DNA of 62,962 bases, filler included, from Collodictyon triciliatum (taxonomy: Eukaryota), in assembly GCA_043381765.1 (NCBI GenBank). It is 13 parts of 13 records of this genome, joined end to end, with 100 filler letters (N's around TTAATTAATTAA, not from the genome) between each part and the next. Parts side by side here need not be neighbours in the genome. Positions count along the whole stretch, not along the records: positions 4,826 to 9,574 come from JBHJMP010005802.1; 12 more parts are not named here. The stretch is one strand, 5' to 3'. Within the stretch, counting starts at the first letter, position 1, and each line of letters begins with the position of its first letter. The translations under genes were made by a program, and so were the position numbers. Below, piece by piece: positions 5,095-9,387 of the stretch. The notes below the pieces were generated by a model. That model was not told where the DNA came from and did not search any database. It worked only from the letters and a program-made list of their open reading frames with translations.

Positions 5095-8000
5095 CTGAGT
5101 CGGGATGAAAATGGTGGCCCCGAAGAAAAGAGGGGTGAAGATATCTCGTTGGAGAGGGTCGTGGGCGATACCAGACGTCATACTAAATCTGTCTGTTTCC
5201 CCGACACCAAATTGTTCAGCCATATAAGGATAGAAGTGTGTCAATGGTCCTAAAACAAAAAGATTTGAAAATAGGTTCCTGATTGTGATATTTTCGTGAT
5301 TCAAAAAGACAACTTTTAACATAATAATCAAACATCCCAGTGGTATCACATTGAGCTAAGTAATAGTCTCATTGAAATAGACATATGAAGAGAGGAGGAA
5401 GAGGACGAGGAGGTATATATGCGCTTCAACTTGTAATAATTAAAAGGATATAGGAAATATTAAAAATAAAAAAAATAGAAGAACAGAATGGAAGAGAAGA
5501 AGAAAAAAGAAGATACCATGTCGTCCCATCACTCCTTTCGGCTGGCCTGTGGAACCTGAGGTAAAAGTGACAACAGCAACATTATTTTCTGTTATGTCGA
5601 TATCTGGGTCATCGATATTAGCTCCTTGAAGAGGGTTCTCCTTTGTTCCAGCAACAACCTCCATCGGATTTGGTAATACAATCTGAATCAACAAACATAC
5701 TTTGTTACTACTACACAGGGGAAGATTTTGAATAAAAATAAATATGTTCGACTATTAAACGTATGAAGTTTGGAAAATTGGATATATCTGTATACATTAT
5801 AATTATATTGTGAAAAGAAAATATTTTGTTTTCGTAATATAGGGGTAGTATTATGAGTATGACTATGACTATGACTATGACTATGACTATGACTATGACT
5901 ATGACTATGACTATGACTATGACTATGACTATGACTATGACTATGACTATGACTATGACTATGACTATGAGTATGATTATGATTATTTAATAATTATTTG
6001 TAAGACTTAGACCTGACATAAGAGGTTCTTTGAGTTTAGAAACTCAGTGAGCTCTTGAGGAGGTGAACCTGCTGAATCGATGGCGATCCAACCTTTAATG
6101 GAAGCAATATCAAGACAAGCTGCAATTCTGTCGAAAGGGTAAGCGGGGTCCATCATGGTGTATGCAGCCCCAGCTTTGAGAATTCCCATGATTGCCCAGA
6201 CAACGGCCGGACTACGATGACCGTAGAGCCCAATGACATTTTCTTTTTGAATTCCCTTTGCAACCAAATAGTTTGCGAGCTGATTCGTCAAGTTATCCAG
6301 ATCTTTGTAGGACATAGTTTGACCTTCATAAGATATTGCTGTTCTTGTCGGGCGTTCTTTTGCCTGTTTGGAGAAGCATCGATAAATTGGGCCAGGGAAT
6401 GAAGAATCCAAAGGAATTGTGGGGTTTGGGATGAGTTTGAATGCGGATTCGGTGACCAGTTTGTAAGACAGGACAGATTTATCGTGGTCTTGGGAGACTT
6501 GAGTGAGCAAGAGCTCCAGTTGAGAGATAATTTCACTGATGCGGTCAGGGAGGAATAGATGTGCGTTGTACGTGACCTGAACCGAAATGTTTGGGACAGA
6601 TTCAGTGTCTTTCCATTCATAACCGAAATGAAGAGTAAAATCAAACGGAGATAGGCAAAAAGAAGGAGATAGTATCGATATATCCCCATCACGACTGGGT
6701 TTGCAAGTGTTGTTATTTGCTTTGGAGGTGTATCCCAGGAATTGAGGGTCAAAAGATAAAAGGATGTGGGAGAGGGGCACGTGATTATCGAATCCACCAA
6801 ATGCGACGCGTTTGGAACCAAGGGCTTGCTCTGTAAGTATCTTTCCGAATGGAACCTCCACGTGATTGAGGCCGTCACGCAGGGAGTGCCGAACTTTGTT
6901 GTATAGTAAAGAGTATGAAGTGGACAGATCCACCGAGTTACGTAGTGGGAAATAATTTGAAAAGTTACCCAGGATATTTGAGAATTCGGGTCTGATGGTG
7001 ACGGGACTCTTGACAAGGGTTACGAGATCCTCTTCGAGAGAGTAGCGATAGAGAAGGATGCTTACAGCGGTCAGGAGGTTGGACAATATGGAGGATAGGG
7101 ATTTTGAGCTTCCAGAGACCTTTTCTGAGAGTGCCAAGAGTTTTTCGACGACGGCCGTGTGCAGATTGTGCGTGAATGTCTGACACAGAAAGTCTGGGCT
7201 TGGAGGACGAGTGCGGTCGATGGGGAGTTGAACGACTGGCAAGCTACCAGAGAGCTGGTCCATCCAGTATTTTACATCAGCCCGTTTTGTCTCTTCATAG
7301 ACCGACAGATGGCCACGAATACCTTGCTCTGGCGGCTCGGCGTCGAATGCCCTCACAAGGGACCACTCGGCCTGTTCCCATACAGAGACCTGGAGATAGT
7401 GTCCAATGGTAGGGGTCTCTATGGCAACAAAAGGTGAAGGTGAAGGTGAAGGTGAAGGCAATGATGCTAGGATAGAGCCCACCAGACGCGAGCCCAGAAG
7501 ACGGAGGCTTTCTTCATCAAGGATGGTCATGTGAGCAATCATGTAGACGAGGCTAGATGAGTGAGGAGAAGCACTCTTCTGCGAAACAACGGCGATACGG
7601 AAGAGGGGCGACCAGGGTTCATCCTTTGGGGAGGCGGAGGAGTGCTCGGTGACAAACGGGGCGAGCAGCTGAGCCTTGTAAACCGCCCAGGAGGAGAGTT
7701 CAAGGCGAATGTCATCCAGCTCCAAGAAAGCAAGCGGAAGAGTGAGATGGAGGGAGGAGGCCGGGAGGATCTCCTGGAGCAGCGCCGGCGACTCGGAAGG
7801 CGGGGCCGGGTCGCGGAGGAAGCGCGTTCTGAGGACCGGGTTGTCAGCCAGCAGCGCGGAGAGGGCAGCGCGGCAGGAGGCCGGGTCGTGCAGGGGGAGT
7901 CTTGCAGCGAAGCCGATGTTGTAAGCGGCGGTTGCAGGGGATGCCGGGCCTTGCTTTGCGCGGTGTGTCTTTTCCAGATCAAGAAGGCGATGCTGCTCAT

Positions 8001-9387
8001 GGGAGACCGGGGCTGTTGCGGGCACGGATGGAGATGGGGAGAGGGCGGGCTTGAGGGCGGCAGCGTGGCGGAGATAGAGTGCGCGGGCGCGCAGCCAGAC
8101 AGGGTCGGAGGCGTAGCGGGGCAGGGCGGCGAGGAGGGGCAGCAGCTGGGCGGAAAAGTCTGCGCTGCTCTCTGCGGGGAGGAGGGAGGGCAGGTTGGGG
8201 ATGGCGATGACGTCGAGGGGCAGCGGGCCCTGCAGGACGCGGCGGGTGGGGGCGGCCAGCGTGGTGGTCTCGCTGTAGATGGGGACGGGGTTGGCAGGGT
8301 GCAGCACGTCGCAGGCAAAGTCCAGCAGGACAGACGTGCGCCGCTGCGGCTGGCGAATCAGCTCGTGCGTCAGGAGCGGGGCCACGGGCGGGTGCTCGTC
8401 CAGGCGCACGGCGTTGACCACAATCTCGTACTGCAGCAGCGACAGCGACTGGGATTGCGTCTGCATCTGCGTCTCGGCCCGCCGCCACTCGGCACAGTGC
8501 AGCCCGAGTTGCCGCGCAAAGGCCACGGCCCCGCCGCCGCACCGGCCGCCTGCACCGATGACGACCACGCGCGGCGCGGCGCCGTGGAACGAGACGGCAA
8601 AGGCCAGCAGCCCCCGCACGTGCTCCACCAGCGGCATGCGGTTCAGCTTCGTCAGGATGTCCTCCGGGATGTCGACGGTCTTTGCGAGGATCTAGGATGT
8701 GTGCATGTGCATGTGCATGAGCATGAGCATGTGCATTGCAGGGGCGGGCGAGGAAAGGAAAGGAAAGGAAAAGGATAGGTTAGGGCGGGCATGTCTATTC
8801 TGGACGTGCCATGATGCTGATTCGCCTGTCCGGTGGCTGTCGCGTGGGATGTGATGCAATGACATGGAATGGAATGGAGATACCTGGCGGCACCAGGCAA
8901 TGACCGCGCCGGCCAGGCCGATAGCGCCGGCCATTGGGGCGAAGGAGGCCAGGCGCACGCCGCGCTCGTCGACGAGATGCTCCAGATCCAGCAGCGTGGC
9001 GTTGCGCTGGGCCAGCGACTGCAGCAGCGGCAGCGAGTGCGGCTGATTGCGGTATGCGTGGCCGAAGAAGATGTGCCGCACCCCGGCGGTCTGCATGCTG
9101 GCGTGGTCTCTGCTCGGCGCGCGCAGCCCCAGCACAAAGGCCTCGGCAGGCACCGCCGTCCCCGCACACACGCTCGCGCACCCCGCCGCCTCGTACTCCT
9201 CCGTCGCATACGCCCGCACGCGGCACGCCTCCACCGTGATCCGCACGTCGCCCCGTGCCAGCAGTGTCCGCGCCGTCTCGGGCGTCAGCGGCGTCCGGCG
9301 ATCGGCCTGTGCTGCCTCCGTCTCTCGTCGCGTCCCGCGGGGTGGGTGTGTCGCGCTCTCTGCTCGCAGCCAGAGGTGCACCGTCAT
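5095..9387 (-). CDS. Fusion of a Lys1-like saccharopine dehydrogenase (AlaDh/PNT fold), an NRPS condensation-like domain and a Lys2-type alpha-aminoadipate reductase adenylation domain; 3' partial. Exons 9387-8884, 8691-6013, 5682-5517, 5249-5095
   Basis: All introns are GT-AG and keep frame. Lys1-like: LWLRAE..RRTPLTP, HIFFGHAY, LLDLEHLVDERGVRLASF, VIGAGGRCGGGA, DFACD..PANPVPIY, IAIPNLPSLLPAESSADFS. C domain: SHEQHRL, AYNI, NPVLRTRF, YWMDQLSG..LPIDRTRP, GNFSNYFPLR. A domain: ILKAGAAYTMMDPAYP, TFTSGSTGQPKGVMGRH and the Lys2 signature SGIAHDPLQRDIFTPLF. Confidence 0.9.
5855..5985. repeat. (GACTAT)n microsatellite in an intron
   Basis: Perfect hexamer array inside intron 2 of the fusion gene. 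Confidence 0.95.

What the first reader, a model, noticed from the sequence alone, without database searches (positions are those of the whole stretch)
5095..9387. Lys1-like dehydrogenase fused to a condensation domain and a Lys2-type adenylation domain in one polypeptide
Seen: four GT-AG exons splice in frame. The dehydrogenase C-terminal half, the whole C domain and the start of the A domain lie in one uninterrupted 2.7-kb exon (8691-6013), so the junction does not depend on my splicing model. Established: in the fungal alpha-aminoadipate pathway Lys2 (A-T-R reductase) and Lys1 (final step) are separate, non-consecutive enzymes with Lys9 between them, and the pathway is patchy outside fungi. 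Inference: either a multifunctional lysine-biosynthesis enzyme in a non-fungal protist or an NRPS-like assembly line with a built-in reductive-condensation domain. I do not know of this architecture being described but cannot search. T and R domains would lie beyond the contig end.
Basis: partly seen in the sequence, partly recalled or inferred. Interest (0 to 1): 0.85.

Follow-up and report, generated by a model that had tools for sequence, protein, structure and literature searches.

The report
Protist Lys2 reductase with Lys1-derived head
This is the expressed front part of a protist gene for the lysine-pathway enzyme alpha-aminoadipate reductase that carries a complete condensation domain and, ahead of it, a domain derived from saccharopine dehydrogenase whose usual catalytic residues have been replaced.

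Summary
On a 4.75-kb contig (4826-9574) four GT-AG exons on the minus strand give 1168 codons without a stop, cut off by the contig end. Intron 1 is removed exactly as predicted in a cDNA-like public contig. At least eleven database proteins, including Phalansterium and Rigifila, are colinear and continue into T and R domains, so the contig is not chimeric.

The C-A-T-R part is Lys2-like. TIGR03443 is the best family in 7 of 7 full-length relatives. The model's N-terminus starts at the C-lobe of the condensation domain. The "C domain" is therefore a full two-lobed version of the fungal ADA domain, not an insert.

The head domain descends from eukaryotic Lys1. In the fused clade the residue at yeast K77 is never Lys, against 114 of 114 stand-alone enzymes. 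E78, D227, D319 and H320 are also replaced. It is probably not a working saccharopine dehydrogenase.

I found no paper describing this architecture. Verdict: a new variant of a known kind, of moderate to high interest.

The parts
8884..9387 (-). Exon 1 (168 codons, ATG at 9387-9385): N-terminal half of the Lys1-derived dehydrogenase-like domain
   Evidence: AlaDh_PNT_N 68.9 bits. Best solved relative is yeast saccharopine dehydrogenase, E 3e-12. The start aligns with the starts of P0003 and P0395. RNA-like contig X1 record 3 covers 9026-9382.
9121..9123 (-). Arg codon at the position of yeast Lys1 catalytic Lys77 (Ala follows in place of Glu78)
   Evidence: Alignment to PDB 3ugk in native numbering. 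K in 114 of 114 stand-alone homologs; R or G in 7 of 7 fused members that cover it. Coordinates. Covered unchanged by X1 record 3.
8692..8883 (-). Intron 1 (GT..AG, 192 nt)
   Evidence: X1 record 2 joins 8691 directly to 8884 (table 8).
6013..8691 (-). Exon 2 (893 codons, protein P0001): second half of the dehydrogenase-like domain, the whole C domain and the start of the A domain
   Evidence: Single open frame. Colinear BLASTP with P0395, 36% identity over the whole 894 aa, E 1e-154.
8047..8691 (-). C-terminal (dinucleotide-binding) half of the Lys1-derived domain; Arg-Arg at 8479-8484 in place of Asp227-Ile228, Pro-Asn at 8194-8199 in place of Asp319-His320
   Evidence: Yeast saccharopine dehydrogenase E 6e-31, aligned to the end of the 373-aa chain. 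Residue table; coordinates. Covered by X1 record 2 with no change at these codons.
7285..8019 (-). N-lobe of the condensation domain, with a degenerate C3 motif (xHxxxD; His at 7531-7533, Asp at 7516-7518)
   Evidence: No Pfam hit when scanned alone. It is homologous to the N-lobes of relatives whose Pfam hits start at profile positions 4-34. The AlphaFold model aligns over 210-748 with whole C domains. Motif table.
6442..7284 (-). C-lobe of the condensation domain, the counterpart of the fungal Lys2 ADA domain
   Evidence: Pfam Condensation 80.1 bits, profile 192-450. TIGR03443 positions 2-365 start here, at P0001 residue 476. ADA is a C-lobe only, per passages of PMC7884236.
5095..6375 (-). 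Start of the Lys2-type adenylation domain (end of exon 2, exons 3 and 4, with introns 2 and 3 between)
   Evidence: AMP-binding 83.2 bits. 51-66% identity to the relatives over these 148 residues. TIGR03443 is the best NCBIfam family.
5683..6012 (-). Intron 2 (GT..AG) with a hexanucleotide microsatellite at about 5858-5970
   Evidence: The junction is supported only by frame and by alignment to relatives.
5250..5516 (-). Intron 3 (GT..AG)
   Evidence: The junction is supported only by frame and by alignment to relatives.
4826..5094 (-). Start of intron 4 (GT at 5094-5093) running through a (CAAA)n tract into the contig end; the rest of A, plus T and R, is missing
   Evidence: Relatives continue with the rest of A, then PP-binding and NAD_binding_4.

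Best explanation
The contig holds the first 1168 codons of an expressed nuclear gene of a freshwater protist. The gene encodes a Lys2-type alpha-aminoadipate reductase.

Core enzyme (inferred from family membership). The A domain adenylates the delta-carboxyl of alpha-aminoadipate. The T domain carries it as a thioester. The R domain reduces it with NADPH to the semialdehyde. T and R are lost beyond the contig end but are present in all full-length relatives.

First difference from fungal Lys2: the domain in front of A is a complete two-lobed condensation domain. Fungi keep only its C-lobe, the ADA domain, which the adenylation step needs. With no donor carrier domain upstream and a degenerate active-site motif, I think it acts as that same structural helper of the A domain and not as a peptide-bond former.

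Second difference: the N-terminus is a domain that arose once from a eukaryotic Lys1 (saccharopine dehydrogenase). It keeps the fold, the glycine-rich dinucleotide motif, His96 and the two substrate arginines. In every fused member it has replaced Lys77, Glu78, Asp319 and His320. It has also replaced the ribose-binding Asp227, always followed by Arg, which is the usual signature of NADP(H) rather than NAD.

I conclude the head is not a canonical saccharopine dehydrogenase. It is more likely a conserved accessory module that still binds a dinucleotide and a dicarboxylic amino-acid ligand. My split for its role:
- about 45% regulatory or structural;
- about 30% a new reductive activity on the product aldehyde;
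- about 10% ordinary Lys1 activity;
- the rest unknown.
For: Gene model and expression:
- 1168 codons without a stop and GT-AG introns.
- Intron 1 is removed exactly in a cDNA-like contig, and contigs at 99% or more identity from three RNA runs cover parts of 6350-9382.

Family:
- Colinear full-length relatives carry Condensation, AMP-binding, PP-binding and NAD_binding_4 in 7 of 7 tested.
- Named sources are Phalansterium solitarium and Rigifila ramosa.
- A 25-member cluster holds 1927-aa forms.

Lys2 assignment:
- TIGR03443 is the best NCBIfam family for the window piece: 146.3 bits, model positions 2-365.
- It is also best for 7 of 7 relatives (855.8-1139.7 bits), against 490-575 bits for MxcG, the next-best family in 5 of the 7.

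Full C domain:
- The AlphaFold model (mean pLDDT 67) aligns over residues 210-748 with whole C domains. Example: 8qnf, Z 26.8, rmsd 3.5, 423 of 448 residues.
- ADA is a C-lobe only, per passages of PMC7884236.

Head domain:
- Yeast Lys1 is the best solved relative for both halves (E 3e-12 and 6e-31).
- The 8 fused domains in the tree form one clade (SH-aLRT 99), next to the Balamuthia and chytrid stand-alone enzymes.
- Position 77 is K in 114 of 114 stand-alone enzymes and K in 0 of 7 fused members.
- D319 is P in 12 of 12. The D227 position is non-acidic, with Arg next, in 12 of 12.
- Human LKR, a distant relative, keeps K77, H96, K99 and D319.
- The head is better conserved within the family (41-49% identity to the window) than the C domain (25-36%). 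That argues for a selected function rather than decay.
Against: - The window itself lacks most of A and all of T and R, so the reductase function is read from relatives.
- Only 2 of 7 relatives reach the curated TIGR03443 cut-off of 1030.1. Four fall 4-36 bits short and P0091 scores 855.8.
- The window's N-lobe alone has no Pfam hit at E up to 10, and parts of the model are below pLDDT 50.
- No RNA contig bridges 7610-7997 or the exon 2/3 and 3/4 junctions.
- An Arg at position 77 could conceivably still act in catalysis. The catalytic roles of K77, H96 and D319 are recalled from the yeast enzymology literature. The library gave me only a reference title naming K99 and D319.
- The NADP(H) inference rests on a general Rossmann-fold rule, not on a test. 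The low-confidence alignment to NADPH-using human LKR shows an acidic residue there.
- I could not check whether these organisms also have stand-alone LYS1 or LYS9.
Confidence: 0.7

Rival explanations
1. True bifunctional lysine enzyme. The head is a working saccharopine dehydrogenase (Lys1) fused to Lys2, so one protein does the third-last and the last step of the alpha-aminoadipate pathway.
For: The head descends from eukaryotic Lys1. It keeps 60 of 82 (window) to 71 of 83 (P0003) near-invariant Lys1 columns, including His96, the two substrate arginines and the glycine motif. Fusions of lysine-pathway enzymes exist, for example Lys1-like with Lys9-like proteins among the hits.
Against: Lys77 is invariant in 114 of 114 stand-alone enzymes and in human LKR, but is absent from all 7 fused members that cover it; two of them have Gly. 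Glu78, Asp319, His320 and Asp227 are also replaced throughout. The two steps are not consecutive, so the fusion brings no channelling.
Confidence: 0.1
2. Neofunctionalised head. It is an NADPH-dependent reductive aminase that captures the semialdehyde released by the R domain. It would make saccharopine with glutamate (a Lys9-like step) or lysine directly.
For: The changed residues are themselves conserved: Pro at 319 in 12 of 12, and Arg after the lost Asp227 in 12 of 12. The dinucleotide motif and the carboxylate-binding arginines are kept. The head is better conserved than the C domain. The product of R is the substrate of the next pathway step (established pathway knowledge).
Against: No test of activity. 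Position 77 varies between Arg and Gly within the clade, which fits loss of a catalytic role better than a new one. The whole AlaDH/Lys1 superfamily uses that lysine (recalled). The presence or absence of LYS9 in these organisms is unknown.
Confidence: 0.2
3. A secondary-metabolite NRPS-like enzyme unrelated to lysine synthesis, whose C domain forms an amide bond before reductive release (MxcG-like logic).
For: There is a full two-lobed C domain, with the second His and the Asp of the C3 motif kept in 10 of 12 members. The MxcG model aligns end to end with P0003 (residues 396-1902 to model 3-1442).
Against: MxcG scores are about half the TIGR03443 scores and far below its cut-off of 2300. There is no donor carrier domain upstream. 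The first His and the Gly of HHxxxDG are absent in all 12, and the catalytic His is absent in 2. Only one such gene is seen per source, in distant protist lineages, which suits a housekeeping enzyme.
Confidence: 0.07
4. Assembly artefact: a GC-rich fragment and an AT-rich fragment joined in frame by chance.
For: GC3 falls from 0.78-0.94 in the first 400 codons to 0.34-0.48 in the last 370. The contig is short and ends in simple repeats.
Against: The fall is gradual. At least eleven independent proteins are colinear across every domain boundary. One run (X1) holds contigs from both the GC-rich and the AT-richer part.
Confidence: 0.02

Closest known systems
Fungal alpha-aminoadipate reductase Lys2 / NPS3 (ADA-A-T-R; NCBIfam TIGR03443)
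   Same: Best-scoring family for the window piece and for all 7 full-length relatives tested. It aligns colinearly from the C-lobe through A, T and R. It works with the same A-T-R logic (passages of PMC12041015).
   Different: The fungal enzyme starts with the ADA domain, a C-lobe that lacks motifs C1-C5 (passages of PMC7884236). This family keeps the N-lobe as well. It also adds about 385 residues of a Lys1-derived domain in front.
Saccharopine dehydrogenase (NAD+, L-lysine-forming), yeast Lys1, PDB 2q99/3ugk
   Same: Same fold and clear homology over the whole 373-residue enzyme. The fused domains branch inside eukaryotic Lys1.
   Different: Lys77, Glu78, Asp227, Asp319 and His320 are replaced in all fused members. 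The domain is also fused, not free-standing.
Bifunctional lysine-pathway fusions: animal/plant AASS (LKR-SDH) and the Lys1-like plus Lys9-like proteins among the hits (P0276, P0292, P0297, P0317)
   Same: A Lys1-family domain is joined to another enzyme of saccharopine metabolism.
   Different: The partner there is the Lys9-type reductase, which does the adjacent step. Human LKR keeps K77, H96, K99 and D319. Here the partner is Lys2 and those residues are lost.
Bacterial C-A-T-R modules such as myxochelin synthetase MxcG (NF038078)
   Same: Same domain order. The model aligns end to end with P0003 and P0013.
   Different: Scores of 490-575 bits against a cut-off of 2300. MxcG works with a donor carrier protein, which is not part of this polypeptide.
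C* domain of module 1 of ACV synthetases
   Same: A condensation-derived domain placed before an A domain that activates alpha-aminoadipate and is needed for adenylation (passages of PMC7884236).
   Different: C* is an isolated C-lobe, as ADA is. Here both lobes are present.

Membership tests
Lys2-type alpha-aminoadipate reductase (TIGR03443) | Best match to the equivalog model, colinear from its N-terminus | tested here: met
   Window piece: 146.3 bits, residues 476-887 to model 2-365, the top family. TIGR03443 is the top family in 7 of 7 full-length relatives.
Lys2-type alpha-aminoadipate reductase (TIGR03443) | Whole-protein score at or above the curated cut-off (1030.1 bits) | tested here: inconclusive
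   The window protein is truncated, so it cannot reach the cut-off. Relatives: 2 of 7 pass (P0395 1139.7, P0003 1036.1) and 5 fall below (1025.7, 1021.6, 1009.9, 994.2, 855.8).
Lys2-type alpha-aminoadipate reductase (TIGR03443) | Carrier (T) domain and NADPH-dependent thioester reductase (R) domain after A | not testable with these tools
   These lie beyond the contig end at 4826 and no whole genome is held. They are present in 7 of 7 relatives.
Lys2-type alpha-aminoadipate reductase (TIGR03443) | A-domain pocket specific for alpha-aminoadipate | not tested
   Most of the pocket is in the missing part. No fungal Lys2 sequence was on hand for a comparison of pocket residues in the relatives.
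Saccharopine dehydrogenase, L-lysine-forming (Lys1) | Homology and fold over both lobes | tested here: met
   Yeast enzyme E 3e-12 (exon 1) and 6e-31 (start of exon 2). The domains fall in a clade within eukaryotic Lys1.
Saccharopine dehydrogenase, L-lysine-forming (Lys1) | Lys77 (with Glu78), invariant in the family; acid-base role recalled from yeast enzymology | tested here: not met
   The window has Arg-Ala. K is found in 114 of 114 stand-alone homologs and in 0 of 7 fused members.
Saccharopine dehydrogenase, L-lysine-forming (Lys1) | His96 and the substrate arginines (Arg18, Arg131) | tested here: met
   All three are kept in the window. His96 is kept in 7 of 8 fused members that cover it, and the arginines in all that cover them.
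Saccharopine dehydrogenase, L-lysine-forming (Lys1) | Asp319-His320 in the AIDHLPS motif | tested here: not met
   Pro-Asn in the window. Pro in 12 of 12 fused members, with Asn or Thr next.
Saccharopine dehydrogenase, L-lysine-forming (Lys1) | Acidic residue (Asp227) at the end of the second Rossmann strand, as expected for NAD | tested here: not met
   Arg in the window. Non-acidic in 12 of 12 fused members and followed by Arg in 12 of 12.
NRPS condensation domain (PF00668) | Two-lobed fold | tested here: met
   Model residues 210-748 against 8qnf: Z 26.8, rmsd 3.5, 423 of 448 aligned. Similar results for RzmA, X-domain and CDA C1. The model is of middling confidence (pLDDT 67).
NRPS condensation domain (PF00668) | HHxxxDG active-site motif | tested here: not met
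   The window has A-H-x-x-x-D-E. The first His and the Gly are absent in 12 of 12, the second His is kept in 10 of 12, and the Asp in 12 of 12.
NRPS condensation domain (PF00668) | A donor carrier domain upstream | tested here: not met
   The residues upstream are the Lys1-derived domain, and no PP-binding hit lies before the C domain in any relative.

The most novel reading that the evidence does not exclude
The Lys1-derived head has become an NADPH-using reductive aminase that takes the aminoadipate semialdehyde straight from the R domain and turns it into saccharopine (replacing Lys9) or into lysine. One polypeptide would then run two or three steps of lysine synthesis. The family would also preserve the ancestral elongation-module form (full C domain) from which fungal Lys2 and its ADA domain were cut down.
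Probability: 0.17. Interest if true: 0.85.

Novelty: new variant of a known kind. Interest (0 to 1): 0.6.

Why it matters
Alpha-aminoadipate reductase has been treated as a fungal hallmark enzyme with a puzzling N-terminal ADA domain. One paper I read in passages (PMC7884236) proposed that Lys2 and ACV synthetase module 1 descend from an NRPS elongation module. This protist family still has the complete condensation domain. It therefore gives that proposal a living intermediate and a construct on which the role of the two lobes can be tested.

The head domain is a clean natural experiment. A Lys1 copy was fused once and then kept under selection in distant protists (Amoebozoa and Rigifilida). 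Its superfamily-wide catalytic lysine was lost, and its cofactor site appears to have switched. Finding out what it does, whether sensing, scaffolding or new chemistry on the reactive aldehyde, would say how lysine synthesis is organised outside fungi. It also warns against scoring 'LYS1 present' from a domain hit in protist surveys.

Tried and rejected
- Whole-genome search for the missing 3' part and for stand-alone LYS1, LYS9 and LYS5: no genome is held for this window.
- The representative-library search with exon 2 was swamped by multi-module NRPS. The best 150 of 83,794 hits gave only three colinear single-module relatives: P0002, P0193 and P0253.
- The protein-atlas look-up returned only generic condensation-domain clusters at scores of 0.90-0.91.
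- The earlier-findings look-up by sequence returned nothing.
- Pfam on the window's N-lobe alone gave no family at E up to 10.
- Paper searches for a Lys1-Lys2 fusion, or for aminoadipate reductase in protists, gave nothing relevant.
- Searches for the yeast residue roles gave only unrelated papers and one reference title. The cited author manuscript PMC3174770 is not held.
- Using human LKR to support the NADP inference did not work: the alignment at Asp227 is weak and shows an acidic residue.
- P0273 (627 aa, Lys at position 77) was first counted as fused. It lies outside the clade and has no C domain, so it was dropped from the fused set.
- RNA contigs left 5980-6349, 6786-6951, 7335-7466, 7610-7997 and 9383-9450 uncovered. 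I draw nothing from these holes.
- Chimeric contig: rejected (see rivals).

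
Full report
WHAT THE WINDOW IS. The 62,962-base window is not one molecule. Twelve linkers of the form N44-TTAATTAATTAA-N44 split it into pieces of about 4.75 kb. The finding lies on the piece 4826-9574. That piece ends in a (CAAA)n tract on one side and a long poly(A) run on the other. Neighbouring genes in the window therefore say nothing about this gene. 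No whole genome is held.

THE OBSERVATION. On the minus strand, exons 9387-8884, 8691-6013, 5682-5517 and 5249-5095 are each followed by GT, and exons 2-4 are preceded by AG. Joined, they give 3504 nt = 1168 codons without a stop. Exon 2 is a single open frame of 894 residues, stored as P0001.

Pfam finds the following:
- AlaDh_PNT_N in exon 1, 68.9 bits.
- In exon 2, AlaDh_PNT_C at 19.6 bits (below its cut-off of 23), Condensation at 80.1 bits (residues 470-749, profile 192-450) and AMP-binding at 83.2 bits (residues 773-870).

After exon 4 a GT opens an intron that runs into the contig end.

IS IT REAL AND EXPRESSED? I laid public contigs of four runs on 5980-9450.
- In run X1, one 844-letter contig lies on 7998-8691 and continues at 8884-9016. 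That is intron 1 removed to the base.
- The same contig carries a 17-letter loose end that I recognise, from recall, as the end of a SMART template-switch primer. X1 is therefore cDNA.
- Other X1 contigs cover 9026-9382 and 7467-7609.
- Contigs of two metatranscriptome runs (X3, X4) cover 6350-6500, 6567-6785, 6952-7334 and 7467-7608. Four of these five contigs are at 99% identity or more; the fifth is at 95-99%.
- Nothing bridges 7610-7997, and the exon 2/3 and 3/4 junctions were outside the stretch laid.
- The codons at the positions discussed below (9121-9123, 8479-8484, 8194-8199) lie inside X1 contigs and are unchanged there.

GC3 falls from 0.78-0.94 over the first 400 codons to 0.34-0.48 over the last 370. 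The fall is gradual.

RELATIVES. A search for longer proteins with exon 2 scored 8000 candidates. It found 1435 with E at most 0.001 and listed the best 120. Most are bacterial multi-module NRPS that match the C-A part only. Seven are single-module proteins of 1747-1931 residues: P0002, P0003, P0010, P0013, P0015, P0091 and P0095. Four of them cover 98-99% of the query in one local alignment at 32-39% identity. P0015, P0091 and P0095 cover 21-47% at 30-47% identity.

P0003 is from Phalansterium solitarium and P0002 from Rigifila ramosa, both EukProt transcriptomes. The others carry no name, or a JGI name 'L-aminoadipate-semialdehyde dehydrogenase'.

All 7 carry Condensation, AMP-binding, PP-binding and NAD_binding_4.
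- AlaDh_PNT_N passes its cut-off in 3 of them: P0003, P0091 and P0095.
- It is sub-threshold in P0015, whose model starts late.
- P0002, P0010 and P0013 lack the first half of the head but keep its second half. I cannot tell truncated gene models from real loss.

Further members came from other searches.
- The exhaustive representative search added P0193 and P0253.
- P0193's cluster has 25 members. Three are 1927-aa forms.
- On contigs of 532-592 kb the cluster also has pieces separately named saccharopine dehydrogenase, aminoadipate-semialdehyde dehydrogenase and thioester reductase. This is what a prokaryote-style gene caller makes of an intron-split fusion.
- P0274 is a 672-aa fragment with the head and a C domain.

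The architecture thus stands in at least eleven clusters besides the window. A chimeric contig is excluded.

THE C-A(-T-R) PART IS LYS2. The NCBIfam equivalog for L-aminoadipate-semialdehyde dehydrogenase, TIGR03443, is the best family for the window piece: 146.3 bits, residues 476-887 on model positions 2-365. It is also the best family for all 7 full-length relatives tested:

- P0395: 1139.7 bits
- P0003: 1036.1 bits
- P0013: 1025.7 bits
- P0015: 1021.6 bits
- P0002: 1009.9 bits
- P0095: 994.2 bits
- P0091: 855.8 bits

The cut-off is 1030.1, so 2 of 7 pass. The myxochelin C-A-T-R synthetase MxcG scores 490-575 bits. It is the next-best family in 5 of the 7; PRK05691 (P0003) and AusA (P0013) come second in the other two.

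The Lys2 model begins exactly where the Pfam Condensation hit begins, at profile position 192, which is the C-lobe. Passages of PMC7884236 state that the ADA domain of fungal aminoadipate reductases and the C* domain of ACV synthetases are isolated C-lobes. They lack the N-lobe and motifs C1-C5, they are needed for adenylation of aminoadipate, and they may descend from an elongation module. Passages of PMC12041015 give the ADA-A-T-R mechanism.

THE N-LOBE IS PRESENT HERE. Evidence on each side:
- Against: scanned alone, the window's residues 225-470 of exon 2 hit no Pfam family at E up to 10.
- For: exon 2 aligns in one piece with P0395 at 36% identity over 894 residues, E 1e-154.
- For: relatives have Condensation hits from profile positions 4-34.
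- For: an AlphaFold model of exon 2 built on 12 family members (mean pLDDT 67, pTM 0.53; several loops below 50) aligns over residues 210-748 with complete C domains. Examples: 8qnf, Z 26.8, rmsd 3.5, 423 of 448 residues; 7c1l, Z 26.8, 396 of 432; 4tx3_B, Z 26.5, 431 of 457. Foldseek target-normalised TM-scores for chains of about 450 residues are 0.73-0.76.

The C3 motif is degenerate. The first His and the Gly of HHxxxDG are absent in 12 of 12 members. The second His is kept in 10 of 12 and the Asp in 12 of 12. No carrier domain lies upstream. I therefore read the domain as the un-truncated form of ADA, probably a structural helper of the A domain. This last step is inference.

THE HEAD DOMAIN. 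Both halves find yeast saccharopine dehydrogenase first among solved structures: E 3e-12 for exon 1 and 6e-31 for the first 215 residues of exon 2, aligned to the end of the 373-residue chain. The alignments to 3ugk carry native numbering, which let me locate R18, K77, E78, H96, K99, D227, D319 and H320.

A search with the head of P0003 among shorter proteins gave 213 hits, of which the best 120 were listed. I aligned 118 of these with the fused heads:
- 114 stand-alone proteins under 500 residues;
- 4 longer proteins that also carry Lys9-type domains.

In a tree of 124 rows the eight fused heads form one clade (SH-aLRT 99). The clade is sister to the Balamuthia stand-alone enzyme (86), and then to Synchytrium plus P0315 (89). 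I left out six rows: three fused proteins without the first half, and three Lys9-type fusions that aligned poorly. P0273, which I had first labelled fused, falls outside the clade and has no C domain.

Of 83 columns that are at least 93% conserved in the 114 stand-alone enzymes, the fused heads keep 73-90%. Six columns differ in every fused member that covers them:

| Position (yeast numbering) | Stand-alone enzymes | Fused clade |
|---|---|---|
| K77 | K in 114 of 114 | R in 5, G in 2, K in none of 7 |
| E78 | E in 110 of 114 | A, V, D or P |
| D227 | D | non-acidic in 12 of 12, next residue always R |
| D319 | D | P in 12 of 12 |
| Trp (column 141 of the reference) | W | changed in all |
| Ala (column 147 of the reference) | A | changed in all |

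The residue after D319, H320, becomes N or T.

The fused heads keep H96 (7 of 8), K99 (R in the window), the two substrate arginines and the glycine-rich motif. Human LKR is a far more distant relative that runs the same reaction backwards, and it keeps K77, H96, K99 and D319.

Within the family the head is 41-49% identical to the window's, the C domain 25-36% and the start of A 51-66%. So the head is under constraint.

My reading has two parts.
- Canonical saccharopine dehydrogenase chemistry is unlikely. The acid-base roles of K77 and H96 are recalled. The library gave only the title of a paper on K99 and D319.
- The loss of D227 with a gained Arg suggests NADP(H), by the general Rossmann rule. 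This was not tested.

What the domain does instead is open. I give about 45% to a ligand-sensing or structural accessory, 30% to new reductive chemistry on the aldehyde product, 10% to ordinary Lys1 activity, and the rest to unknown.

COMPARISON AND NOVELTY. The core works like fungal Lys2 and, by the tests above, belongs with it. The cut-off criterion is borderline in relatives, and T and R are untestable in the window. The head works unlike Lys1 and fails four of its residue criteria, so I do not file it as a Lys1 enzyme, only as Lys1-derived.

Six searches of the held library found no paper describing this fusion or a Lys2 with a full C domain. That library lacks most subscription journals. 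In particular I could not see the 2009 survey of eukaryotic lysine pathways that I recall, so prior mention cannot be excluded. No supplementary files were consulted.

I rate it a new variant of a known kind. It is interesting mainly for two reasons. It appears to be the intermediate form predicted for the origin of ADA. And it shows a once-fused, conserved, active-site-remodelled dehydrogenase domain shared by Amoebozoa and Rigifilida.

Noticed in passing
window 4726-4825, 9575-9674 and ten more sites: The window is a pseudo-molecule. Thirteen pieces of about 4.75 kb, apparently sorted by size, are joined by N44-TTAATTAATTAA-N44 linkers. Gene neighbourhood across the linkers is meaningless. 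Two further N runs, 2384-2798 and 44646-45136, lie inside pieces.
   Followed up: yes
window 5095-9387 (-): There is a steep, gradual 5'-to-3' fall of third-position GC within one gene, from about 0.9 to about 0.4. Introns and flanks are AT-rich. Other pieces of the window also show GC-rich islands in AT-rich DNA. I have no explanation for the gradient.
   Followed up: partly
window 24336-29075 (+): A whole piece is one open frame of 1580 residues running off both ends. It has 34 Ephrin_rec_like repeats plus NCD3G/TNFR-type cysteine-rich matches.
   Followed up: partly
window 9250-9340 (-), residues about 12-28 of the protein: An insertion of about 12-15 residues with a conserved P-P-R-G lies between the WLRAE motif and the Arg18-equivalent. 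It is shared by the window, P0003, P0091 and P0095. It is absent from P0395 and from stand-alone Lys1 enzymes. It sits next to a substrate-binding arginine.
   Followed up: no
window 5858-5970, 4826-4960, 8740-8790, 7424-7466: Microsatellites are found in and around the gene: a hexanucleotide array in intron 2, (CAAA)n at the contig end and a CCTTT-type run in intron 1. An in-frame Ser-Pro repeat in the C-domain N-lobe coincides with a low-confidence loop of the model.
   Followed up: no
window 29954-30889 (+), 22784-23746 (-), 37469-38221 (-): Other open frames on unlinked pieces: a tandem universal-stress-protein domain, a metallo-beta-lactamase-fold protein and a leucine-rich-repeat protein.
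   Followed up: no
P0273 (public protein, 627 aa): This Lys1-family protein keeps Lys77 and has three AlaDh_PNT_N stretches, with the best N-domain match lying after the C-domain match. This suggests a tandem or permuted arrangement. It lies outside the fused clade.
   Followed up: no
P0276, P0292, P0297, P0317 (public proteins): Proteins of 747-957 residues combine a Lys1-type domain with Lys9-type Sacchrp_dh domains. Some are from bacterial-looking sources and some have the Lys9 part first.
   Followed up: no
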